Assembly (NCBI GenBank): GCA_045600845.1
Contig: JAZRYR010000026.1
Span: forward strand, 1,234 to 65,233
Length of the DNA stretch: 64,000 nt
Source of the DNA: Lachnospiraceae bacterium
GTDB taxonomy: Bacteria > Bacillota > Clostridia > Lachnospirales > Lachnospiraceae
Direction: 5' to 3'
The position numbers and the translations under genes are program-made. Each line of letters begins with the position of its first letter. The stretch's first letter is position 1. This document shows positions 8,952 through 29,052 of the stretch, piece after piece. The notes beneath the pieces are model-generated. The model saw only the letters and a list, made by a program, of their open reading frames with translations. It was not told the origin of the DNA and did no database searches.

Positions 8952-9454
8952 GAGGCTCTCAATTTGAAAATATAATTAATCAGTCCAATGAAAAATACAG
9001 AGAATTACGGCTTGGTTTAGTACAGAAGATACCGACCCCGATCAAACCGGTAGAAATTGATGACAACCGTCATATTACTTTGGCTTATTTTGAAAAGAAA
9101 AGCACCGTAGACTATATTGGCGTTGTTCAATCCTTCCCGATCTGCTTTGATGCAAAAGAGTGCAAGGAAAATACCTTCCAGTTATCGAATGTACATGATC
9201 ATCAGTTTGATTTCATGACGGATTTTGAGGAACAGGGTGGAATCTCCTTTTTACTGATTAATTTTACCGGTGCGGATAAATACTACTATATGCGCTACTT
9301 TGAATTAAAACAGCTTCTTACAAAAGCAAAAAATGGAGAAAAGAAGAGCGTAAATATTGATGAATTAGACAGTAATTATTTTATTACCGAAAAGCTGGGT
9401 GTGCCTCTGCATTATCTGGAAGGTATTAATATGGACCTGCAGGAGAGAGATTGA
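8924..9454 (+). CDS. recU: Holliday junction resolvase RecU
   Basis: The 176-aa translation matches RecU-type segments: GSQFENIINQSNEKYRE..LVQKIPTPIKPV, STVDYIGV, FDAKEC, NVHDHQFDFM, GGISFLLINF. An SD (GGAGAAAAAAT) precedes the ATG. Confidence 0.85.
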   Translation: MATWDSRGLRGSQFENIINQSNEKYRELRLGLVQKIPTPIKPVEIDDNRHITLAYFEKKSTVDYIGVVQSFPICFDAKECKENTFQLSNVHDHQFDFMTDFEEQGGISFLLINFTGADKYYYMRYFELKQLLTKAKNGEKKSVNIDELDSNYFITEKLGVPLHYLEGINMDLQERD

Positions 9455-11334
9455 TGGAAAGAAAAATGGCGCTTACGGAGCGTATTTTATTAAATGTGGA
9501 AAAACCTGCCCGATATACCGGAGGAGAGGTGAATTCCTGTATGAAAGACCGTGAAAAAGTGGATATCCGTTTTGCCATGTGTTTTCCGGATTTATATGAA
9601 ATCGGCATGAGTCATTTAGGCATGCAGATTATTTATTCCATGCTGAATAAAAGAGAAGATATCTGGTGTGAACGGGTATTTTCGGTCTGGCCGGATCTGC
9701 AAAAGATTCTTCTTGAGGAGAAAATACCATTATTTGCCCTGGAAAGCCAGGATCCCATTAAGGATTTTGATTTTCTTGGCATTACTTTACAGTATGAAAT
9801 GGCGTACACCAATGTTCTTCAGATTCTGGAGTTATCCCAGATTCCTTTTCATACTGACGAACGCAGTGAAAGAGACCCGATTGTTATCGGTGGAGGCCCA
9901 TGTGCCGCCAATCCAGAGCCATTAGCAGACTTTTTCGACCTTTTTTATATTGGAGAAGGTGAAACTGTATATTATCAGTTAATGGACGTATATAAGGAAA
10001 ATAAAGTCTCTGGTAGAAGCCGAAAGGATTTCCTTTTGAAAGCTGCTGCCATTGAAGGAATCTATGTTCCTTCTCTTTATGAGGCATCCTATAACGAAGA
10101 TGGAACAATAAAATCTTTTGAACCGAAACCGGAATATGAAAACAGTGCTCCAAAAACCGTTTTAAAACAGGTAGAGTCGGATTTGAGTAATTCTTTCTAT
10201 CCGGATAAGCCGGTGATTCCATATGTTCAGGCAACCCAGGACCGGGCAGTCTTAGAGGTGCAGAGAGGATGCATCCGTGGTTGTCGTTTCTGTCAGGCAG
10301 GAATGATTTATCGTCCTTTCCGAACTCGTTCTTTGGATTTTTTAAAGAAGTATGCCAAATTTCTCATTGAAAATACCGGTTATGAAGAATTGTCCCTTAC
10401 TTCCTTAAGCACGAGTGATTATCCATATTTTGCAGAATTAATGGAGTATCTTTTCGAAGAATTCAAAGACCGAAAAGTCAATATTTCCCTTCCATCTCTC
10501 CGTATCGACGAATTTTCCTTAGATGTCATGAGCAAAGTTCAGGATATTAAAAAGAGTTCCCTAACCTTTGCTCCGGAAGCCGGAACACAGAGAATGCGGG
10601 ATGTGATCAATAAAGGTATCACGATGGAAGATATTGTGTCTGGATCTACTCTGGCTTTTAAAGGCGGATGGAATAAAGTAAAGCTTTACTTTATGCTGGG
10701 TCTTCCTACGGAAACGGAAGAAGACATTCTTGGCATTTCCGATTTATCGGAACAGATTGCGAAAATCTATTATGATACGGTTCCGAAAGAGGAGCGTACG
10801 GGTAAAGTTCAGATTACGGTAAGCACTTCTTTCTTTATTCCGAAGCCATTCACACCGTTCCAATGGGAGCCAATGTATGAACCAGAGGTATATCTGAAGA
10901 AAGCCTGCACCTTGAATGATTCCATTAAAGGGCAGTTAAATAAAAAAAGCATCCGTTATAATTGGCATGATGCAAAGACTTCCGTAATCGAAGGGCTTCT
11001 TGCCCGTGGGGACCGAAGAGTTGGTGAAGTGATAGAAAAAGCATATCAAAATGGTGCTGTTTTTGATGCCTGGACCGATTTCTTTGACTATGAAAATTGG
11101 ATGAAGGCATTGGAGGGCATGGAATACGGAATGGATTTCTTCGTTTACCGAAGAAGAGATTTAAATGAAATCCTTCCTTGGGATTTCATTGATATTGGTG
11201 CTACGAAAGATTTTATGAAGAGGGAATATGCAAAGGCTTTAAAAGCGGAAGTGACACCAAATTGTAAAGAAAAATGTGCCGGTTGTGGTGCAGGAGTTTT
11301 CAAAGGAGGGATCTGCTTTGAAAATAAGAATTAA
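9454..11334 (+). CDS. B12-binding-domain radical SAM protein (TIGR03960-like)
   Basis: It has the CxxxCxxC cluster motif (GCIRGCRFCQAG) and is about 625 aa. It is conserved upstream of the DUF2344-type partner and rng in Clostridia. The ATG at 9454 overlaps the recU stop (TGATG). Confidence 0.8.
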   Translation: MERKMALTERILLNVEKPARYTGGEVNSCMKDREKVDIRFAMCFPDLYEIGMSHLGMQIIYSMLNKREDIWCERVFSVWPDLQKILLEEKIPLFALESQDPIKDFDFLGITLQYEMAYTNVLQILELSQIPFHTDERSERDPIVIGGGPCAANPEPLADFFDLFYIGEGETVYYQLMDVYKENKVSGRSRKDFLLKAAAIEGIYVPSLYEASYNEDGTIKSFEPKPEYENSAPKTVLKQVESDLSNSFYPDKPVIPYVQATQDRAVLEVQRGCIRGCRFCQAGMIYRPFRTRSLDFLKKYAKFLIENTGYEELSLTSLSTSDYPYFAELMEYLFEEFKDRKVNISLPSLRIDEFSLDVMSKVQDIKKSSLTFAPEAGTQRMRDVINKGITMEDIVSGSTLAFKGGWNKVKLYFMLGLPTETEEDILGISDLSEQIAKIYYDTVPKEERTGKVQITVSTSFFIPKPFTPFQWEPMYEPEVYLKKACTLNDSIKGQLNKKSIRYNWHDAKTSVIEGLLARGDRRVGEVIEKAYQNGAVFDAWTDFFDYENWMKALEGMEYGMDFFVYRRRDLNEILPWDFIDIGATKDFMKREYAKALKAEVTPNCKEKCAGCGAGVFKGGICFENKN

Positions 11335-20211: not shown

Positions 20212-20333
20212 AACCTGGCATAAATCGAAATATCCTTTTTCTATATTATCTCGTATAAACGAATACCAAAGGCATATTTTGAGAAAATTATACTATAATC
20301 GGTATGGATACTATAACGAAAGGCAGCAATAAT

Positions 20334-22055
20334 ATGAAAAGAAAGATCTTAATCAACGGAAAAATTTATACAGAAGATCAACGAAATCCTTGGGCTGAGG
20401 CGGTTGCGATCGATGATAAGCACTTTGCCTGTGTAGGAAAAAATAAAGAAGTAATCGCCTATGCAAAATTTCATTGGAATACAGATTTTGAATGGATTGA
20501 TCTCGGCGGAAAGACCGTGCTTCCTGGATTAATCGAAGGACATACGCACCCGGCAATGATGTCGAAATCTGCCTGGGTCCTTCATGGCGCAGAAACAGAA
20601 AATGAAGACGATATGTATGAAGACATTAAAAAATTTGCGGTGCTTTATCCGAAAGAGAAGCTCCCATATTTTGTTTATACTCGTTATCTGAATGAATGGT
20701 TCGGCCCAGAAGGTCCAAATAACAAGCGTCTGAACAAGATAATTTCGGATCGTCCTGCTCGCATCGAGGACAACAGTGGTCACGGTTGCCTCTACAACGA
20801 TGTTGCACTGGAAATGCTGAAGGACGAAAATGGCATTCCTCGCAACAGTAGCCCAATTGCAGAACCTTATTTTGTGAAGGATGAGGATGGAAACTACACC
20901 GGGTGGGCACAACAGGCTCTACTTCCGAAAGATGACGGGATTTATCAGAAATCCGGTTTTCATTACCCGGATGCGATGAGTGATGAGCTGTCCGGGGAAA
21001 TCTTTGACACCTTTCATCATTATGGCATTATGGTATGCATGGATGGTGTTACCGAAACAGAGGGCGATATCCGATATCTTTACGAAAAGGATTTAAATGG
21101 AAACCTGAATATAAACTATGAAGCTACCTGCGTTCTTCCTGTCATGAACGATGAAGCTATTGAAAAAACCATAGCAAAGATTCGCGACTGGCAGAAAAAG
21201 TACACCACCGATCATATTAATTGCAATATTATGAAATATTTTATTGATGGGTCGATTGAGTTTGGCGATGTTCTTACAGTTGAGCCATTTATCGACGATC
21301 CCGAGGGTCAGAATTGTGGCACTGGCTGCCACTGCACGGTGGAGGAAATGACGAACCTAATGGTACGTCTTAACAAAGAAAGGATTGACCTCCATATCCA
21401 TTGTGTCAGCGACGGTGGTCTGCGCATAATATGTGATGCCTGTGAAGCTGCGCAAAAAATATGTGGTGACGACTGGTGTATCTATGTTACCGCTGCCCAT
21501 TGCGAGATTATCCATCCAAATGAAATCCACCGTATCCATGAGTTAGGTATTTTCATGGATACCACGCCGATCTGGAGTGGTATGGGTTCAGCAACACATT
21601 TAGCTAAACTTGGGTATGAACGTTGGAGTAGGCTACATGTCTATACCGATATTATCGCGGATGGCGAACACGTCGGATTTTCAAGTGATGTCATTGAGGC
21701 TACAGAGAAAAAACTTCTCAATCCATTCACCGGTATCCAAGTCGGTATCACCCGACTTTTTCCAGGTGATATCGATGAAATCGATCATGACCGCTATTAT
21801 GAAGATGGGGGCCGACCACCAAAAAGTGGTCGACTTACACTGGAGCAGATGATTCACGGATATACTGTTACCAACTCCATTCGTATGCGTCTGAACCATC
21901 GTCTTGGATCCATTGAAGTTGGCAAAGATGCAAATTTAGTCGTACTATGTGAAGATATCTTCACTATGAATCCGGAAGACATTTGGAATATTGACACCGA
22001 ATATGTGTATTTTGAAGGAAAAGAAATAGTCAATACAAGCAAAATTCGACGATAA
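20334..22055 (+). CDS. Amidohydrolase family metal-dependent hydrolase (YtcJ-like)
   Basis: The N-terminus KILINGKIYTED...VLPGLIEGHTHP carries the HxH metal motif. The C-terminus GSIEVGKDANLVVL is typical of amidohydrolase-3 proteins. Confidence 0.8.
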   Translation: MKRKILINGKIYTEDQRNPWAEAVAIDDKHFACVGKNKEVIAYAKFHWNTDFEWIDLGGKTVLPGLIEGHTHPAMMSKSAWVLHGAETENEDDMYEDIKKFAVLYPKEKLPYFVYTRYLNEWFGPEGPNNKRLNKIISDRPARIEDNSGHGCLYNDVALEMLKDENGIPRNSSPIAEPYFVKDEDGNYTGWAQQALLPKDDGIYQKSGFHYPDAMSDELSGEIFDTFHHYGIMVCMDGVTETEGDIRYLYEKDLNGNLNINYEATCVLPVMNDEAIEKTIAKIRDWQKKYTTDHINCNIMKYFIDGSIEFGDVLTVEPFIDDPEGQNCGTGCHCTVEEMTNLMVRLNKERIDLHIHCVSDGGLRIICDACEAAQKICGDDWCIYVTAAHCEIIHPNEIHRIHELGIFMDTTPIWSGMGSATHLAKLGYERWSRLHVYTDIIADGEHVGFSSDVIEATEKKLLNPFTGIQVGITRLFPGDIDEIDHDRYYEDGGRPPKSGRLTLEQMIHGYTVTNSIRMRLNHRLGSIEVGKDANLVVLCEDIFTMNPEDIWNIDTEYVYFEGKEIVNTSKIRR

Positions 22056-22090
22056 CTCATGTATTTGATTTGTCAAAGGAAGATTGGAAA

Positions 22091-22221
22091 ATGAAAAATA
22101 AAGTAAAATGTAATAATGGAAATTTCATTGGTATGGTGCTGAACTTCCGTATTTATTTGATAATGGTTTCAATCATTTTGAAGAAGTCGTATATCCTAAA
22201 AACGAGTTTGTTAAACTCTAG
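22091..22221 (+). pseudogene. Possible heavily deleted carboxylesterase (type B) remnant
   Basis: Frame A reads MKNKVKCNNGNFIG, like the esterase N-terminus (xVxTxxGxVxG). The adjacent frame reads YGAELPYLFDNGFNHFEEV...*, like the conserved C-terminal H-x-x-ELPYVFGN segment. The two are joined with a frameshift. This is speculative. Confidence 0.25.
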
Positions 22222-22256
22222 AAAATAATAGATTAAATGAAAAGGAGAAACAGAAA

Positions 22257-22586
22257 ATGAATGATAATTTTGCAAACGATATTATGAACAATGAAGAATT
22301 TAAGGAAAAAGTAAGCAAGGTACAATCAAAAGAAGAATACATAAAATTGCTTAAGGAGTATTCTATTTCTGAATCTGATTTCGGGGAAGTTAAAGATGAT
22401 GAACTTGAAAAAGTAAGTGGTGGAAAAAGTATAATTGATGTAATTGAAGAACATACTTTTACAGCTTTTCAATGTACGGAATGTAAATATACTAGAAGCA
22501 GACAAGGTTATTGGCTTCCAACAATTGAAGAATGTCCGAAATGCCATAAAGAAACATTTCATGCAAAACAAGTCTTTTTTGCATAA
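22257..22586 (+). CDS. Nif11-like / double-glycine leader peptide fused to a 53-aa CxxC-x16-CxxC core (candidate exported peptide or RiPP precursor)
   Basis: An SD (AAAGGAGAAA) precedes the ATG. The leader reads EEFKEKVSKVQSKEEYIKLLKEY.ISESDFGEVKDDELEKVSGG. Relative to the GG at nt 22419-22424, hydrophobic residues sit at -4, -7, -12 and -15 and Glu at -8. The core contains CTEC...CPKC. Confidence 0.7.
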   Translation: MNDNFANDIMNNEEFKEKVSKVQSKEEYIKLLKEYSISESDFGEVKDDELEKVSGGKSIIDVIEEHTFTAFQCTECKYTRSRQGYWLPTIEECPKCHKETFHAKQVFFA

Positions 22587-22809
22587 ATTTAACGATTGCA
22601 TATAAGCTCCTTTTTTTTGAATATTTCTTTTCACTATTTTTATACGGATTAATAAACGTAATGACTAATGTTTTGGTACTGTTATTTTGCCTGAATTTTT
22701 CTTAAAAATAGTATAAATGAGGAACCGATTTTTTTTAAGTCGATACAAAGCTTATATACTTAAATTATTTAAATATAAAGTGTATTTTTATGAGCCCCGA
22801 TCAAAAATA

Positions 22810-23877
22810 TCACGTGCTTTCGGTATGATCTTCGCGTAATGAGACCATATTTCGGGCCATACGACGTCTTTCATCTTCAATCGCTGCGTAATGCTTTTTT
22901 GTCGTGTTAACGTCAGAATGGCCTAATACGTCGGCCACAAGGTAAATGTCTCCGGTTTCCTTATAAAGCTGTGTACCATAGGTGCTTCGAAGCTTATGAG
23001 GAGTTATTTTCTTAAGCTGCGTTACCTGGCCGGCATATTTTTTTACCAGCCTTTCCACACTTTTTACCGTAATGCGACGTTTCTGCATCGATAAAAAGAG
23101 AGCATTTTCATAACCAGTCATTGGTATTATTCCATTACGTTCCCGGATGTAGTTCAAAAGAGCATCTTCCACTTCATCCCCAAAATAAACTACAACCTGA
23201 TTACCACCTTTTCTGGTAATACGAATACCATGATTTTTAAAATCCACATCATTAAGATCTAAGCCAACACATTCAGAAACACGAATTCCGGTTCCCAGAA
23301 GCAATGTGACAATTGCGAGATCCCTTACTTTAGTCTTATCATGGAAGTTTTGTTCCTGTTTTGTCATATTTTTTCCATTTTCAACAACATCCAGCAGATC
23401 TTCCACTTCATCTTTATCCAGTCGAACAATCTCTTTTTCATGCAGTTTCGGCATTTGGATAATCTGAGCCGGATTATTTTTGATCATTTCCATCCGGTAA
23501 AAATAATTATACATGGAGCGAAGAGAGGAGAGCTTTCTCATAAGCCCTCGTTCCGAGTTCGTGCATTCTACATCTTCATCATTATTGTAAACTTTCAGAT
23601 AATCCATATAGTCCTGAATAATCGATGGCGTAATTTTATCCAGAATATTAATACGATACTCCGTAATTTCCTTATCTTGTCCTAAACCAGTTTCATTTTT
23701 AATATAAGTAAAGAAAACCTTTAAATCAAAAGCATAAGCCATTCTGGTACGGGCAGAGGTCGTTGGCTCAATCCCTCGGAAAAAAGCAGATGCAAAGGCA
23801 GGTAATTCTTTGCATTTTTCTCTTAATTTCAGGTTTGTATCTATTTTAAACTGATCATGATAACTTCTATTTGACAT
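22810..23877 (-). CDS. Tyrosine-type site-specific recombinase (Xer-like)
   Basis: It has an N-terminal SAM-like core-binding domain. Catalytic signatures are GTGIRVSE (Arg), HKLRSTYGT (HxxR) and LGHSDVNTTKKHY (His...Tyr). It lies 22 nt downstream of the ttcA-like gene on the same strand. Confidence 0.85.
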   Translation of the reverse strand: MSNRSYHDQFKIDTNLKLREKCKELPAFASAFFRGIEPTTSARTRMAYAFDLKVFFTYIKNETGLGQDKEITEYRINILDKITPSIIQDYMDYLKVYNNDEDVECTNSERGLMRKLSSLRSMYNYFYRMEMIKNNPAQIIQMPKLHEKEIVRLDKDEVEDLLDVVENGKNMTKQEQNFHDKTKVRDLAIVTLLLGTGIRVSECVGLDLNDVDFKNHGIRITRKGGNQVVVYFGDEVEDALLNYIRERNGIIPMTGYENALFLSMQKRRITVKSVERLVKKYAGQVTQLKKITPHKLRSTYGTQLYKETGDIYLVADVLGHSDVNTTKKHYAAIEDERRRMARNMVSLREDHTEST

Positions 23878-23899
23878 AATCTCACCTTACATAAGAAAA

Positions 23900-24649
23900 T
23901 TATTTGTTACTTTCTTGGTCTGAACCAGAACTAATTGGTTTCTTATAAGAGGGTACCGTCTCCAGAATCGCCCGATACATACGTTCTTTCGCACCCGGAT
24001 GATCCCTGTTTAGCTGATTTGCAAGTTCTTTCGCGTATTGACGTTTCGTTTCTCCGTCCACAGGACATGGATTCTTCAGTACCGGAATCTCATATTTATT
24101 AGCAAAACCAATAATATCCGCTTCCTCTACATACATTAACGGACGGATAAGCGTTAAATCCATCCGATCTAAATAAGTAACCGGGGAAAAAGAGTAGAAA
24201 CGCCCCTCAAAAATTAAAGAGAGTAGCATAGTATCGACAATATCATCTTTATGATGACCAAACGCCGTTTTATTACAGCCATGTTCCTTCGCCAGAGAAT
24301 TCAGAGCCCCTTTCCGCATTTTTGCGCATAAGGAACATGGATTTTTTTCTTTCCGTTCATCAAAAATAATAGAGGAAATATCCGTTTTTGCTACATAGTA
24401 TGGAACGTCTAATTTTTTGCAGAATTCCTCTATTTTTTCAAAATTAATATTTCCAAAGCCAAGATCGACACTGAGGGCTTCCATTTCATATTTTTTTGGA
24501 TAAAAACGTTGCAGTTCTTTCATACAATATAGAAGTGCCAGGGAATCCTTTCCTCCGGAAACGCCGATAGCAATCTTATCACCATCATCAATCATGGAAT
24601 AATCATCCAAAGCCCGTCTCGCATAACTCATCAGCTGCTGAAGTTTCAT
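23900..24649 (-). CDS. TtcA-family tRNA 2-thiocytidine synthetase-like PP-loop ATPase
   Basis: It has the PP-loop GVSGGKDS and the Cys motif NPCSLCAKMRKG. Confidence 0.8.
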   Translation of the reverse strand: MKLQQLMSYARRALDDYSMIDDGDKIAIGVSGGKDSLALLYCMKELQRFYPKKYEMEALSVDLGFGNINFEKIEEFCKKLDVPYYVAKTDISSIIFDERKEKNPCSLCAKMRKGALNSLAKEHGCNKTAFGHHKDDIVDTMLLSLIFEGRFYSFSPVTYLDRMDLTLIRPLMYVEEADIIGFANKYEIPVLKNPCPVDGETKRQYAKELANQLNRDHPGAKERMYRAILETVPSYKKPISSGSDQESNK

Positions 24650-26965: not shown

Positions 26966-27664
26966 TTATATTATATTATAATTTCTTGCGCCAAAAATAC
27001 TGGTTCCAACCCGAACGATGTTCGCTCCCTCATTTATGGCAACAATAAAATCTCCACTCATACCCATTGAGAGGAAATCCATAGAAATATTATCTATGTT
27101 TCGACTTTCAATGTCAATAGATAAATGTCTTAAATTCGCAAAGTATCCCCTTACCTCTTCCGGCTCGTCAGTCTGCGGAGCAATTGTCATTAATCCTTTT
27201 ACTTTAATATTTTTTAACTTGGAAATTTCCTTTACCAGTTCCATTGCTTCAGTTTTATCTGTTCCAAATTTAGATTCTTCCCCGGCAATATTTACTTCAA
27301 CCAGAATATCCGTAATAACGCCTGCTTTTTTGGATTCTTTATCAATTTCTTCCGCCAATCTCAAAGAATCTACGGAATGGATCAGATAAGTCTTTCCAAT
27401 AATCTGTTTCACTTTATTTCTTTGAAGGTGGCCGATCAGATGCCAACGAATATCCCGTGGCAAAACATCAATTTTTGTCATCAATTCCTGGACTTTATTC
27501 TCACCAAAATCACGGATTCCTGCATCATAAGCTTCTTGAATATCCTCTGCCGGATGAGTCTTGCTTACCGCAACTAAGGTGACTTTCTGACCATACTTGC
27601 TGTTTTTTTCCGCTTCTTCAATTTGACTTTTAACTTTTTCTAAATTTTCCTTAATCCCACTCAT
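26966..27664 (-). CDS. yggS: YggS-family pyridoxal-phosphate homeostasis protein
   Basis: VTLVAVSKTHP contains the PLP lysine. GENKVQE, HLIGHLQRNK and LSMGMSGDF are also present. Confidence 0.9.
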   Translation of the reverse strand: MSGIKENLEKVKSQIEEAEKNSKYGQKVTLVAVSKTHPAEDIQEAYDAGIRDFGENKVQELMTKIDVLPRDIRWHLIGHLQRNKVKQIIGKTYLIHSVDSLRLAEEIDKESKKAGVITDILVEVNIAGEESKFGTDKTEAMELVKEISKLKNIKVKGLMTIAPQTDEPEEVRGYFANLRHLSIDIESRNIDNISMDFLSMGMSGDFIVAINEGANIVRVGTSIFGARNYNII

Positions 27665-29052
27665 CGGTTTATTATATCGTTTTCCTTTACTTTTGATGCA
27701 TTTTTTACAATCTGTTCAAATAAATTAATCCTGCTTGTAACCGGATCCACAATATAAAAGCTATTGTTTTCACCGATAATATCTACATTCCGGAAAGTTG
27801 CATATCCAGCCCTTGCAACCAGAACTCCTTGCAAGTTTTCTTTTGCGCCAACCTGATATCTGCTGTCACTGTCATTCTTTATTAAAACATCCCCATCCGA
27901 AAAATCATCGGTGCCGACATAGCAATATTGATCCGTTTTTTTAACGATGGCTGGAGTAACAAAGACTATAGATGTACTTCCATCTTCTAATATCACCTCT
28001 TTGTTGAAGCCGTAATCTGAGGAATTCCCACCCTGGGACAAATACTCAACAGGTATTGTATAGTACTGTTTTTCGGTGATTGCCGTTTTCGGTACTTTAA
28101 TTCCTTTTTTTGTATTGTCAATTATGGAAATCGGAGTGTATCGTTCCGTAACATAGCGGATCATATATTTATTAAGGGTAAGAACACCATAAGTATTCCC
28201 CGCTTTCGTAAACATCTCAAAAGCGGCATCTGCAACAATATTGTCTTTTAAAAACTGAATCGTTAAATAATCCGTGTTTTCAAAAACCGTTGGATCCGAA
28301 ATCTGGAAAATCAAATTCCATTTTTCTGAAGTAACAACCTTATAAACAGGGCTGCCCTCTTCTACTAAATCGTTGGATTTAATTATATTTTTCTGGTAAT
28401 CGGATTTGTTAAATGAAGAGGTTTCTACCATGTCTGGCTTTATGTTTTCAAATCCATCAATATGGTGAAGCATAATTCCGGAAATATCGGAAGATACAAT
28501 CTTATACGCATTTTCCCCAGAACTAGACAAATCCGCATTGATACTCTCAAATACGCTGCTGTTGATCAGCTCCAGAATCTGTGATTCGACTTTATATTTG
28601 TAATTGTAAATATCATAATAGTGTTCTTCCCGGAAAGAAGTGTCAAAATCATATAGTCCGGAACGAATCTTAGAAAGATTGGCATCACTGAGAATTGATT
28701 GATCCTTTGCCGCTTTTTCTAACATGGACGAAATTTCACCGGTCCCATCCACAACATAAGTCTGCTGGCTGGCATGGATATTGGTTGCATCACCAACAAA
28801 AAAGTTTATATAACCGGAACCGGCGGAATTAACGATGGTTTCCTCCCGGAGAATCAATGCATTATATTGACCTTCATAACGGCTGGCGGTCTGACCAACA
28901 GATGCTTCATATATTTCCGTTCTTCCGTTAAAAAGATAGATACAAAAATTAACAACTAAATACAGGATTATTATCGCACATACAATGATCCCTATATTTA
29001 GTTGCCTCTTTTTATTATTTGATTTATCTTCAGGATAATTATCTTTTGACAT
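27661..29052 (-). CDS. Single-pass membrane protein of unknown function (possibly HlyD/barrel-sandwich-like)
   Basis: At 463 aa it has an N-terminal TM (IGIIVCAIIILYLVVNFCIYLF) and a large beta-rich extracytoplasmic part. Both ends are translationally coupled (TAATG at 29052, ATGA at 27661-27664). Confidence 0.5.
   Translation of the reverse strand: MSKDNYPEDKSNNKKRQLNIGIIVCAIIILYLVVNFCIYLFNGRTEIYEASVGQTASRYEGQYNALILREETIVNSAGSGYINFFVGDATNIHASQQTYVVDGTGEISSMLEKAAKDQSILSDANLSKIRSGLYDFDTSFREEHYYDIYNYKYKVESQILELINSSVFESINADLSSSGENAYKIVSSDISGIMLHHIDGFENIKPDMVETSSFNKSDYQKNIIKSNDLVEEGSPVYKVVTSEKWNLIFQISDPTVFENTDYLTIQFLKDNIVADAAFEMFTKAGNTYGVLTLNKYMIRYVTERYTPISIIDNTKKGIKVPKTAITEKQYYTIPVEYLSQGGNSSDYGFNKEVILEDGSTSIVFVTPAIVKKTDQYCYVGTDDFSDGDVLIKNDSDSRYQVGAKENLQGVLVARAGYATFRNVDIIGENNSFYIVDPVTSRINLFEQIVKNASKVKENDIINR

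What the first reader, a model, noticed from the sequence alone, without database searches (positions are those of the whole stretch)
22257..22586. Orphan peptide with a Nif11-like double-glycine leader and a zinc-ribbon-like 53-aa core
Residues 13-56 (EEFKEKVSKVQSKEEYIKLLKEY-ISESDF-GEVKDDELEKVSGG) match the Nif11-type leader used by RiPP and bacteriocin precursors. Relative to the Gly-Gly, hydrophobic residues sit at -4 (V), -7 (L), -12 (V) and -15 (F), and Glu sits at -8. That is the pattern recognised by C39-peptidase ABC exporters (PCATs).

The predicted core (KSIIDVIEEHTFTAFQCTECKYTRSRQGYWLPTIEECPKCHKETFHAKQVFFA) carries CxxC-x16-CxxC, a metal-knuckle layout. It does not look like a Ser/Thr/Cys-rich lanthipeptide, a sactipeptide, or a Gly-rich class II bacteriocin core.

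The window contains no PCAT, modification enzyme or immunity gene. The neighbours are a gene remnant and a convergent recombinase. The peptide is therefore either serviced in trans or represents an undescribed cargo type for GG-leader export.
Basis: partly seen in the sequence, partly recalled or inferred. Interest (0 to 1): 0.65.

Follow-up and report, generated by a model that had tools for sequence, protein, structure and literature searches.

The report
Double-glycine-leader peptide with zinc-ribbon core
A real 109-residue gene in a Lachnospiraceae-like gut bacterium joins a standard "cut-and-export" leader to a small four-cysteine, zinc-ribbon-like protein. It belongs to a very rare, undescribed family (15 members found) that is always encoded away from any exporter, so it is a new cargo type for a known secretion route, not a new mechanism.

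Summary
Window 22257-22586(+) is an intact 109-aa ORF with a Shine-Dalgarno and dN/dS of 0.1-0.3.

**Leader.** Residues 1-56 match the Nif11-type leader model TIGR03798 (E 1.2e-6, 28.6 bits, below the 32.3 cutoff). The match ends exactly at the Gly-Gly. V-4, L-7 and V-12 fit the helix that C39 peptidase domains of PCAT exporters bind.

**Core.** Residues 57-109 carry CxxC-x16-CxxC. Modelled alone they fold confidently (pLDDT 89.9) into a ribbon whose only structural neighbours are Cys4 zinc ribbons; none of those matches is statistically significant.

**Family.** Exhaustive searches found 15 members, all from metagenomes or Lachnospiraceae MAGs. The same core sits behind long Nif11 leaders or behind 17-21-aa classical GG leaders, and homology always starts right after GG. 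That modularity is the strongest evidence for a cleaved leader plus cargo.

**Context.** No member has an adjacent PCAT or maturase. Some neighbour other GG-leader peptides, and one neighbours a CPBP/Abi-type gene.

**Best reading (about 0.55).** An unmodified or metal/disulfide-stabilised mini-protein is cleaved and exported in trans by a LahT-like PCAT. Its extracellular role is unknown. Export, metal binding and the presence of a PCAT in the genome are untested. It is a new variant of a known kind, of moderate interest.

The parts
22242..22247 (+). Shine-Dalgarno AAGGAG; 9 nt lie between its last base and the ATG
   Evidence: Read directly from the sequence. DNA homology to other family loci begins 12-30 nt upstream of the ATG, so it includes this site and little else.
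22257..22586 (+). Precursor gene, 109 aa plus stop
   Evidence: ORF list. dN/dS against homologs is 0.19-0.36 over the whole gene. 14 relatives were found.
22257..22424 (+). Leader, residues 1-56: Nif11-like and acidic (net charge -7), ending in VSGG
   Evidence: TIGR03798 E = 1.2e-6, protein 4-56 aligned to profile 8-68/68. Pfam Nif11 E = 0.019 for residues 4-35. AlphaFold helices at 13-20, 25-34 and 47-53. Leader dN/dS is 0.13-0.28.
22380..22424 (+). Predicted C39/PCAT recognition segment, residues 42-56 (FGEVKDDELEKVSGG): F-15, V-12, E-8, L-7, V-4, G-2, G-1
   Evidence: Positions counted. A helix is predicted at 47-53. It matches the Val-4/Leu-7/Leu-12 knobs seen in the LahT and PCAT1 complexes (PMC6363468; PMC6959990). 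The short-leader family members retain only this segment.
22425..22583 (+). Core/cargo, residues 57-109: 53 aa, predicted mass 6327.2 Da average, pI about 7, hydrophilic
   Evidence: Core-only profile search of 1.84e9 proteins returned 6 hits: 5 true members, the query included, plus one repeat false positive. Homology always begins just after GG. AlphaFold pLDDT 89.9. Masses.
22473..22484 (+). First Cys knuckle, C73-T-E-C76
   Evidence: Both Cys are invariant in 15/15 members, but the spacing varies among CxC, CxxC and Cx4C. A Thr four residues upstream is conserved in all 8 aligned cores.
22533..22544 (+). Second Cys knuckle, C93-P-K-C96 (CPxC type), always 16 residues after the first pair
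   Evidence: CxxC and the 16-residue spacer are invariant in 15/15 members. Foldseek neighbours are Cys4 zinc ribbons.

Best explanation
The gene encodes a precursor made of two modules.

**Module 1 (residues 1-56)** is a Nif11-type double-glycine leader. Its last ~15 residues form an amphipathic helix (V-12, L-7, V-4) followed by Gly-Gly.

**Module 2 (residues 57-109)** is a 53-residue mini-protein. It folds into a zinc-ribbon-like beta structure held together by two Cys knuckles, either as a Zn(Cys)4 site or as two disulfides.

**Proposed mechanism.** A peptidase-containing ABC transporter (PCAT, LahT-like) encoded elsewhere in the genome binds the leader helix in its C39 domain. It cleaves after Gly56 and translocates the unfolded core, which then folds outside the cell. 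No dedicated modification enzyme is needed.

**Proposed role.** The extracellular role is most likely interbacterial, bacteriocin-like or signalling. The near-neutral, hydrophilic core argues against a classical cationic pore-former.

**Shown here:** gene reality, leader homology, recognition-motif conservation, leader/core modularity, the predicted core fold, and orphan context.

**Inferred:** cleavage, export, the partner PCAT, the metal or disulfide state, and biological activity.
For: **(1) Leader homology.** TIGR03798 hits the window protein at E = 1.2e-6 and five relatives at E = 5e-6 to 3.5e-3. All hits end at profile position 68, which is the GG. P0007 reaches the Pfam Nif11 gathering score.

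**(2) Recognition determinants.** V-4 in 15/15, L or F at -7 in 13/15, hydrophobic -12 in 15/15, GG in 15/15. These are the residues shown structurally and by mutagenesis to dock into the C39 groove. V-4 is the LahT-type choice, and LahT comes from a Lachnospiraceae bacterium. A helix is predicted at residues 47-53.

**(3) Modularity.** One core subtype occurs behind 49-63-aa Nif11 leaders (P0011, P0012) and behind 21-aa GG leaders (P0006, P0013). Another subtype has 17-18-aa textbook GG leaders such as MLNNEELEKVSGG. Core homology always starts immediately after GG. Short leaders give sub-threshold ComC and Bacteriocin_IIc hits.

**(4) Context.** Other GG-leader peptides lie next to family members: three in L002 and one 14 nt downstream in L008, L009 and L011. 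A CPBP/Rce1-like gene (PF02517, E = 3e-15) lies downstream in L012.

**(5) Core fold.** pLDDT 89.9 from an 8-sequence alignment. All top Foldseek PDB neighbours are Cys4 zinc-ribbon modules, probability 0.9-0.99, TM about 0.5-0.6. Sub-threshold Pfam hits are to zinc-ribbon families only. The 16-residue spacer and the second CxxC (CPxC in 14 of 15) are invariant.

**(6) Feasibility.** PCAT1 exports a 66-residue unstructured cargo with leader-only specificity. Nif11/NHLP leader conservation tracks the transporter rather than the maturase, and some members occur in species without known maturases.

**(7) Selection.** dN/dS well below 1 in both modules.
Against: - No PCAT or C39 peptidase is present in the 64-kb window or beside any of the roughly 16 family loci. 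Most of those contigs are under 2 kb. Whether the source genome has a PCAT could not be tested.
- TIGR03798 scores are below the curated cutoff for every member.
- The fold matches have non-significant E-values (0.09 or higher), as expected for 53 residues.
- The first Cys pair varies among CxC, CxxC and Cx4C, which is looser than most zinc knuckles.
- The N-terminal two-thirds of the long leader is under purifying selection although C39 domains need only about 13 residues. This hints at another binding partner.
- The core is neutral and hydrophilic (pI about 7, GRAVY -0.5), unlike typical class II bacteriocins.
- No immunity-like gene flanks the window copy.
Confidence: 0.55

Rival explanations
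1. It is a true RiPP precursor. A maturase encoded elsewhere (a LanM-type lanthipeptide synthetase, or a radical-SAM thioether-forming enzyme) recognises the long Nif11 leader and crosslinks the four Cys (lanthionine, sactionine or ranthionine) before PCAT cleavage and export. On this reading the zinc-ribbon resemblance is incidental.
For: - The only experimentally studied Nif11-leader precursors from Lachnospiraceae (LahA1-9) sit in a lanthipeptide operon. Their N-termini (MNENL..., MNDSL..., translated from the primers) resemble this family's MNDNF/MNENF.
- The N-terminal part of the leader is conserved and under purifying selection (dN/dS 0.13-0.28), beyond what the C39 domain needs.
- A Thr four residues before the first Cys is invariant in the 8 aligned cores, and a Ser/Thr four residues after the last Cys is conserved in those same 8.
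- There are weak sub-threshold hits to the plantaricin C lantibiotic model (E = 5e-4 for P0002, 0.022 for the window protein).
- Prochlorosin-type N11P genes are known to be scattered and modified in trans.
Against: - No maturase lies next to any member or in the window. The two MiaB-family rSAMs and the TIGR03960 rSAM are housekeeping.
- The same cores function behind 17-21-aa leaders that lack the whole N-terminal Nif11 part, so leader-directed modification cannot be obligatory.
- Only two Ser/Thr positions are conserved for four Cys.
- The unmodified sequence is predicted with high confidence as a folded ribbon.
- The strict 16-residue spacer and the second CxxC knuckle (CPxC in 14 of 15 members) are typical of structural metal sites.
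Confidence: 0.2
2. It is a cytoplasmic small zinc-ribbon protein. The N-terminal region is a Nif11-like helical domain with an intracellular role, for example nucleic-acid or protein binding. The Gly-Gly is a linker, not a cleavage site.
For: - No exporter is seen at any locus.
- Stand-alone Nif11 proteins of unknown function exist.
- Zinc ribbons are overwhelmingly intracellular modules (neighbours).
- Pfam Zn_ribbon_13 (a nucleic-acid-binding family) scores 22.2 against a gathering score of 23.
- The window copy sits among housekeeping genes.
Against: - The N-terminal domain is replaceable by unrelated 17-21-aa peptides that still end in hydrophobic-x2-hydrophobic-x-V-[ST]-G-G. This is expected for a secretion leader but not for a functional domain.
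- The -4/-7/-12/GG pattern is conserved across all leader types.
- Neighbouring genes in L002, L008 and L009 are themselves GG-leader peptides.
- The Zn_ribbon_13 match spans the leader/core junction (residues 45-79), so it is not a clean domain hit.
Confidence: 0.13
3. In this particular genome the gene is a stranded relic. It would be a horizontally shuffled cassette that landed in the variable terminus region without a cognate PCAT, and is no longer exported or useful.
For: - Homology between loci is confined to the ORF plus 12-30 nt upstream, and every locus has different flanks.
- The window copy lies between an ORF-less stretch and a Xer-like recombinase, at the GC-skew/strand switch.
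- It has the shortest Nif11-type linker (a 17-aa gap relative to P0002 and P0003).
- No promoter or terminator signal rises above the shuffled background.
- There are no paralogs in the window.
Against: - The ORF is intact with a good Shine-Dalgarno.
- dN/dS against its closest relative is 0.25, with all recognition and Cys residues kept.
- The linker region is length-variable across the family (leaders of 49-73 aa), so the gap is not a lesion.
Confidence: 0.1

Closest known systems
Nif11-type leader peptides (N11P, TIGR03798; Haft, Basu & Mitchell 2010), including LahA1-9 of Lachnospiraceae bacterium C6A11, which are processed by the PCAT LahT
   Same: - Long acidic helical leader ending in a double glycine, with V-4, L-7 and a hydrophobic -12.
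- Significant alignment to TIGR03798 that ends at the GG.
- Same bacterial family as the validated LahT substrates.
- Genes can lie far from the transporter or maturase.
   Different: - Scores fall below the curated cutoff.
- The core is not a short Cys/Ser/Thr-rich peptide. It is a 47-55-aa conserved module predicted to fold on its own as a Cys4 ribbon.
- No lanthipeptide, TOMM or rSAM enzyme is nearby in any locus.
Unmodified double-glycine (class II) bacteriocins and GG peptides of Gram-positive bacteria, exported by ComA/BlpA/LagD-type PCATs
   Same: - Short-leader family members have textbook GG leaders, with sub-threshold ComC and Bacteriocin_IIc hits.
- They cluster with other GG peptides.
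- One locus has a CPBP/Abi-type neighbour.
- Promiscuous in-trans export of scattered GG peptides is a known theme (abstract of PMC7018657).
   Different: - The core is neutral, hydrophilic and beta-rich with four invariant Cys. It lacks the cationic/amphiphilic, Gly-rich or GxxxG features of class II bacteriocins.
- No antimicrobial activity or immunity pairing is shown.
CtA, the 90-residue substrate of PCAT1 from Clostridium thermocellum (24-residue leader plus 66-residue cargo)
   Same: A small-protein-sized cargo behind a GG leader in a clostridial organism. Specificity resides in the leader alone, and the cargo is translocated unfolded.
   Different: CtA is encoded next to its transporter. 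No sequence relationship was tested or is claimed. CtA's function is also unknown.
Cys4 zinc ribbons and rubredoxin-like knuckle modules (for example the MCM N-terminal Zn module, the Sir2 Zn module, USP 'fingers', ribosomal zinc ribbons)
   Same: Two Cys knuckles, the second CxxC (CPxC in 14 of 15), flank a beta-hairpin/three-stranded sheet. These modules are the only structural neighbours of the model and the only Pfam families hit, all below threshold.
   Different: - Those modules are intracellular and usually parts of larger proteins. Here the module is free-standing behind a secretion leader.
- The first knuckle varies among CxC, CxxC and Cx4C.
- No match is statistically significant, so this is a fold-class resemblance and not family membership.

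Membership tests
Nif11-like leader peptide family RiPP precursor (NCBIfam TIGR03798) | Score at or above the curated cutoff of 32.3 bits | tested here: not met
   28.6 bits, E = 1.2e-6 for the window protein. Relatives score 17.6-26.7 bits. The hits are statistically significant but sub-threshold, so by the curated rule this is not a certified member.
Nif11-like leader peptide family RiPP precursor (NCBIfam TIGR03798) | Leader homology runs up to, and ends at, a Gly-Gly cleavage motif, followed by a variable core | tested here: met
   Protein 4-56 aligns to profile 8-68/68. All six Nif11-type members scanned end at profile position 68, the GG.
Nif11-like leader peptide family RiPP precursor (NCBIfam TIGR03798) | Genomic or phylogenetic association with a C39-ABC transporter and/or a maturase (LanM, cyclodehydratase) | tested here: not met
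   None in the 64-kb window or in the flanks of L001, L002 or L014. A genome-wide test was not possible.
Pfam Nif11 domain (PF07862) | Gathering score of 23.8 bits | tested here: not met
   The window protein scores 15.7 bits, E = 0.019. Relative P0007 scores exactly 23.8 and P0011 scores 20.7.
PCAT (C39 peptidase-ABC exporter) substrate / double-glycine leader peptide | Gly-Gly (or GA/GS) at -2/-1, preceded by an amphipathic helix with hydrophobic residues at -4, -7 and -12 | tested here: met
   V-4, L-7, V-12 and GG in the window protein. Conserved across 15 members. A helix is predicted at residues 47-53. Determinants are as defined in PMC6363468 and PMC6959990.
PCAT (C39 peptidase-ABC exporter) substrate / double-glycine leader peptide | A cognate PCAT is present in the same genome | not testable with these tools
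   Only the 64-kb window is available.
PCAT (C39 peptidase-ABC exporter) substrate / double-glycine leader peptide | Cleavage after GG and appearance of the core outside the cell | not testable with these tools
   This needs biochemistry or LC-MS. The predicted core mass is 6327.2 Da average and 6323.05 Da monoisotopic.
Zinc ribbon (Cys4) fold | Two Cys knuckles (CxxC type) separated by a beta-hairpin, within a three-stranded sheet | tested here: met
   The model has pLDDT 89.9 with strands at 11-17, 23-27 and 45-52 and the Cys pairs in the connecting turns. The top structural neighbours are all Cys4 ribbons. The first knuckle deviates in some members (CxC or Cx4C).
Zinc ribbon (Cys4) fold | Significant sequence or structure match to a defined zinc-ribbon family | tested here: not met
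   The best Pfam hit is Zn_ribbon_13 at 22.2 bits against 23, and it straddles the leader/core junction. The best Foldseek E-value is 0.087. The PDB sequence search gives only E of 0.15 or higher for ribosomal ribbons.
Zinc ribbon (Cys4) fold | Stoichiometric metal binding by the four Cys | not testable with these tools
   This requires ICP-MS or a PAR assay on the recombinant core.
Lanthipeptide precursor (class II, LanM-dependent) | Core rich in Ser/Thr paired with Cys, and a LanM/LanT cluster | tested here: not met
   Only two conserved Ser/Thr positions. No LanM in any locus. The plantaricin C family model is sub-threshold (15.2 and 20.4 bits against 29).

The most novel reading that the evidence does not exclude
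Some gut Lachnospiraceae and related Firmicutes use the PCAT route to secrete a repertoire of small, hydrophilic, Cys/His-rich metal-binding mini-proteins. This zinc-ribbon family would be one of them, alongside the Cys/His-rich GG-leader peptides found next to it in L002. These genes would be scattered as promoter-less micro-cassettes and all served by one promiscuous transporter. Their role would not be membrane-active killing. It could be extracellular metal capture or delivery, or receptor-specific signalling or toxicity that depends on a folded metal-stabilised domain. That would be a functional class of GG-leader cargo not described before.
Probability: 0.15. Interest if true: 0.7.

Novelty: new variant of a known kind. 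Interest (0 to 1): 0.42.

Why it matters
If exported as predicted, this family would extend the cargo range of double-glycine/PCAT secretion in gut Firmicutes. The known range is short bacteriocins, pheromones and RiPPs; this would add an autonomously folding, probably metal-stabilised mini-protein.

It is also a clean natural example of leader swapping: the same core sits behind Nif11-type and classical GG leaders. This supports the 'mix-and-match' view in which the transporter, not the maturase, constrains the leader.

In practical terms, it is a compact (6.3 kDa) candidate secreted effector from Lachnospiraceae. It could be made in vitro with the already available LahT150 protease and tested for metal binding and for activity on gut commensals.

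The family is very rare: 15 members across searches of up to 5.8 billion protein clusters. No function is known, so its importance is potential and not established.

Tried and rejected
**Searches that found nothing**
- Two JGI metagenome scans, one with leader-derived and one with core-derived patterns.
- A viral contig scan.
- tblastn against plasmids and phages.
- The leader-only protein search, which is limited by the word index and wasted one search.
- Rfam across the whole window at gathering thresholds.

**Look-ups that failed**
- Three attempts to reach the source contig beyond the window failed, because the window's own record is not exposed.

**Ideas tested and rejected**
1. *The upstream 'remnant' is a remnant of the Ntn hydrolase that neighbours the peptide in other loci.* No tblastn match was found. 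My memory-based guess of a carboxylesterase C-terminus got no Pfam support, so the remnant is unidentified.
2. *A XerS-type difSL site lies in the intergenic region 22587-22809.* The best match in the whole window is 21/31, equal to shuffled sequence, and the local 20/31 match is at chance level. No dif site is claimed.
3. *The HlyD_2 protein at 27661-29052 is a peptide-export accessory.* It matches no NCBIfam secretion model and has no adjacent ABC transporter.
4. *The B12-rSAM at 9451-11334 is a RiPP maturase.* It is the housekeeping TIGR03960 type at 998 bits, next to DUF2344 and RNase G.
5. *The collagen IV NC1 match in the PDB (E = 1e-4) is meaningful.* It is a sum of six weak repeats on a 'C..yWL' motif, not homology.
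6. *P0009 and P0019 are family members.* P0009 is a repeat artefact and P0019 is a fragment.

**Weak results not relied on**
- Promoter and terminator scans showed nothing above the shuffled background.
- The full-length AlphaFold model was weak (pLDDT 61.7). Only the core-only model is used for fold claims.
Full report
**1. The observation**

AAGGAG lies at 22242-22247, with 9 nt between its last base and the ATG. Counting back from Gly55-Gly56 gives V-4, L-7, E-8, V-12 and F-15. The 53-residue C-terminal part carries Cys73/Cys76 and Cys93/Cys96, i.e. CxxC-x16-CxxC.

The gene is real. Nei-Gojobori dN/dS against homologs is 0.13-0.28 for the leader and 0.18-0.47 for the core in pairs that include the window gene. 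The overlapping 102-aa antisense ORF is not preserved in homologous loci.

The bare pattern 'hydrophobic-x4-hydrophobic-x2-hydrophobic-x-GG' occurs 10 times in the window's six-frame translation. The motif alone is therefore not evidence; what follows is.

**2. The leader**

NCBIfam TIGR03798 (Nif11-like leader peptide family) matches at E = 1.2e-6 and 28.6 bits. Protein residues 4-56 align to profile positions 8-68 of 68, so the match ends precisely at the Gly-Gly. The score is below the curated cutoff of 32.3. Pfam Nif11 gives E = 0.019.

Five relatives with long leaders also hit TIGR03798 (17.6-26.7 bits), and each match ends at profile position 68. One relative, P0007, reaches the Pfam Nif11 gathering score exactly.

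The LahT study, on a PCAT from Lachnospiraceae bacterium C6A11 whose nine substrates carry Nif11-type leaders, showed two things. [quoted passage not shown] The PCAT1-CtA structure confirms L-7 and L-12 as conserved knobs and -4 as a specificity position, with V-4 in LahT substrates (PMC6959990). The window peptide has V-4, L-7 and V-12, and AlphaFold places a helix at residues 47-53.

The LahA N-termini, translated from the published primers (MNENLEKFFQ..., MNDSLKEFL...), resemble this family's MNDNF.../MNENF... start.

**3. The family**

The family is extremely rare.
- A word-indexed search of 5.8 billion protein clusters found three relatives.
- An exhaustive HMM search of 1.84 billion representatives with a core-only profile found five true hits, including the query.
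- A final profile search with eight members brought the total to 15 full-length members.

All members come from metagenome assemblies or from two Lachnospiraceae MAGs. JGI metagenome, viral, plasmid and phage collections gave nothing.

Across the 15 members:
- V-4 is present in 15/15.
- L or F at -7 is present in 13/15.
- A hydrophobic residue at -12 is present in 15/15.
- GG is present in 15/15.
- There are exactly four Cys, with spacing (1, 2 or 4)-16-2.
- The 16-residue spacer and the second CxxC are invariant.

The decisive observation is modularity. One core subtype (...DDVIYTxMRC...RKKGFW...EKCPKCGQE[TS]LHGKQLI...) is found behind 49-63-aa Nif11 leaders (P0011, P0012) and behind a 21-aa classical GG leader (P0006, P0013). 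A third subtype (P0014, P0017, P0018) has 17-18-aa textbook leaders such as MEDKKMLNNEELEKVSGG. In every case homology to the core begins immediately after GG. The short leaders give sub-threshold hits to ComC and Bacteriocin_IIc leader models.

A functional N-terminal 'domain' would not be freely replaceable by a 17-aa peptide that preserves only the C39 recognition pattern. A secretion leader would be.

**4. The core**

The full-length AlphaFold model was mediocre (pLDDT 61.7). The 53-residue core with an eight-sequence alignment is predicted confidently: pLDDT 89.9, pTM 0.66, a short helix and strands at 11-17, 23-27 and 45-52, with the Cys pairs in the turns.

Foldseek against the PDB gives no statistically significant hit (best E = 0.087), as expected at this size. 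All top neighbours (probability 0.9-0.99, TM about 0.5-0.6) are Cys4 zinc-ribbon modules: an aRF1-type C-terminal domain, USP fingers, the MCM N-terminal Zn module, the Sir2 Zn module and rubrerythrin. Sub-threshold Pfam and PDB sequence hits are likewise zinc ribbons only.

'Zinc-ribbon-like' is therefore a supported fold-class description, not family membership.

Caveats:
- The first knuckle varies among CxC, CxxC and Cx4C.
- Outside the cell the four Cys could form two disulfides instead of binding a metal.

The core is near neutral and hydrophilic (pI about 7, GRAVY -0.5). It does not look like a cationic pore-forming bacteriocin.

**5. Context**

*The window.* The window is a housekeeping chromosomal stretch: PolA, CoaE, RecU, RNase G, Obg, LexA, SepF, LspA, RluD, MutS/MutL, MiaA/MiaB, EF-G, RecA, RuvAB and glycolysis genes. 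It has no C39 peptidase, ABC exporter, LanM, rSAM-SPASM or CPBP gene. The B12-rSAM at 9451 is the housekeeping TIGR03960 type. The HlyD_2 protein at 27661 has no transporter partner. No paralogous leader or core ORF exists in the window.

*Other loci.* DNA homology between family loci is confined to the ORF plus 12-30 nt upstream, and every locus has different flanks.
- L002 has three other GG-leader peptides nearby, two of them with Cys/His-rich cores, plus an IS fragment.
- L008, L009 and L011 have a second GG-leader peptide 14 nt downstream.
- L012 has a CPBP/Rce1-like membrane protease downstream (PF02517, E = 3e-15).
- L001, L003 and L005 have a Cys-Ntn hydrolase (CBAH/AAT type) as neighbour, in three different arrangements.
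- L014 places the peptide between the housekeeping genes scpA and leuS on a 53-kb contig.

No locus shows a PCAT or maturase, but most contigs are under 2 kb. Orphan status is thus a property of the family, not only of this copy.

**6. Mechanism**

The best-supported explanation (confidence about 0.55) has three steps.
1. The precursor is recognised through its C-terminal leader helix by a PCAT encoded elsewhere, LahT-like given V-4 and the taxon.
2. It is cleaved after Gly56.
3. The 53-aa core (6327.2 Da) is translocated unfolded and folds outside into a Cys4-stabilised ribbon.

Feasibility is established by precedent. PCAT1 exports a 66-residue cargo with specificity residing only in the leader. 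Haft et al. found that Nif11/NHLP leader conservation tracks the transporter, and that some members occur in species lacking known maturases. Promiscuous PCAT export of GG peptides is a known theme (abstract of PMC7018657).

The extracellular function is unknown. An interbacterial role is suggested only by the company the family keeps (other GG peptides, one CPBP gene).

Shown: gene reality, leader homology, motif conservation, modularity, predicted fold, orphan context. Inferred: everything downstream of translation.

**7. Rivals**

(a) *A trans-modified RiPP* (about 0.2). This is supported by purifying selection on the N-terminal leader beyond the C39 requirement, the conserved Tx3C and Cx3[TS], LahA being lanthipeptide precursors, and weak plantaricin C-model hits. 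It is weakened by the short-leader variants, the absence of any maturase, and the confident unmodified fold.

(b) *A cytoplasmic zinc-ribbon protein with a Nif11-like domain* (about 0.13). Leader swapping and GG-peptide neighbours contradict it.

(c) *A stranded relic in this genome* (about 0.1, and not exclusive of the others). This is suggested by its position in an ORF-poor, low-GC gap at the strand switch. The intact ORF and its conserved key residues argue against it.

**8. Comparison with what is known, and novelty**

The leader and the inferred export route are known kinds: N11P/GG-leader peptides and PCATs. The core family, and the idea of a zinc-ribbon-like mini-protein as GG-leader cargo, were not found in full-text searches. 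No curated family captures the core.

I rate it a new variant of a known kind. Interest is moderate (0.42). The family is a neat, testable example of leader modularity and of an unusual cargo, but it is rare, its function is unknown, and the mechanism is not surprising given CtA.

**9. Side observation**

Genes run on the + strand up to 22586 and on the - strand from 22810 onward. The cumulative GC-skew maximum falls at about 22.5-23.0 kb. The gene immediately downstream is a full-length Xer-type tyrosine recombinase, best matched by XerS (195 bits, below its cutoff).

The peptide gene therefore probably sits at the replication terminus. A dif site could not be identified: the lactococcal difSL matches no better than chance.

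Noticed in passing
window 22500-23900 (strand switch at 22586/22810; recombinase 22810-23877 on the - strand): The gene-orientation switch (+ to -) and the cumulative GC-skew maximum coincide in the gap between the peptide gene and a full-length Xer-type tyrosine recombinase. Its best NCBIfam match is XerS at E = 1.7e-57 and 195 bits, below the 267 cutoff. This looks like the replication terminus. A dif site was sought with the L. lactis difSL, but the best match (21/31) equals shuffled sequence, so none is identified.
   Followed up: partly
window 20304-22055 (+): The 583-aa Amidohydro_3 gene just upstream has clearly higher GC (0.43-0.445) than its surroundings (0.31-0.37). It is followed by a 200-bp ORF-less stretch (22056-22256). 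This may be foreign or rearranged DNA at the terminus. The 'remnant' could not be identified (no Pfam hit).
   Followed up: partly
L002 802-1089(-), 1535-1714(+), 2066-2281(+): Three further small ORFs with double-glycine leader-like N-termini (…NEDLKNTSGG, …NNELDEVSGG, …DKSLEKTGGG) lie beside family member P0004. Two have acidic Cys/His-rich cores. None has a Pfam hit. An rve_2 integrase fragment and a 1123-aa surface protein lie nearby.
   Followed up: partly
L008 1754-1864, L009 712-930, L011 483-650; variant in L010 624-878: A second GG-leader peptide (MKTKEEIETLHKKLAEITEEELSQVSGG plus a helical hydrophilic 44-aa core) starts 14 nt after family member P0005. In L010 the same start (MKTK) continues into a Sigma70_r2 fragment next to an FtsK/SpoIIIE-like gene, which suggests a recombination junction.
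   Followed up: no
L001 10430-10906(+), L003 1-717(-), L005 302-1537(+): A Cys-Ntn hydrolase (CBAH/AAT type, with a GG|CS autoprocessing-like motif) neighbours the peptide in three loci, in three different arrangements. The L001 and L003 hydrolase genes are 89% identical in DNA, but the peptide genes are only 71% identical and inverted relative to the hydrolase. The L005 enzyme is 34% identical and has an N-terminal membrane anchor. Whether this is a functional link or a shared variable hotspot is unresolved.
   Followed up: partly
L012 590-1372(+): A CPBP/Rce1-like intramembrane protease (PF02517, E = 3e-15) lies directly downstream of family member P0007. From my own knowledge, this family is often annotated as 'CAAX protease self-immunity' in bacteriocin loci. 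The 90%-identical peptide copy in L005 has a different upstream context.
   Followed up: partly
P0015 (71 aa, ENA contig of 1237 bp): This protein shares its first 42 residues exactly with family member P0010 (Nif11-type leader). It then diverges into a Pro/Asp-rich tail with no GG and no Cys core. It is either a frameshifted or recombinant copy, or the leader attached to another cargo.
   Followed up: no
L014 6409-6816(+) and L015 2730-3137(+): A conserved 135-aa membrane protein with an HEYGH (HExxH-like) motif lies near short-leader member P0013. It has no Pfam hit. Between the two genes, an Acyl_transf_3 gene is present in L015, as two adjacent ORFs, but reduced to a 55-aa stub in L014.
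   Followed up: no
window 27661-29052(-): A 463-aa HlyD_2-family protein (PF12700, E = 6e-27) with one N-terminal membrane span sits in the sepF/ylmE cell-division cluster. It has no adjacent ABC transporter and no NCBIfam match. It is probably unrelated to peptide export.
   Followed up: partly
window 22326-22634(-): A 102-aa antisense ORF overlaps almost the whole peptide gene. It is not conserved as an ORF in homologous loci, where the antisense ORFs are broken into pieces of 50-78 aa. It is best explained as an artefact of AT-rich sequence.
   Followed up: yes
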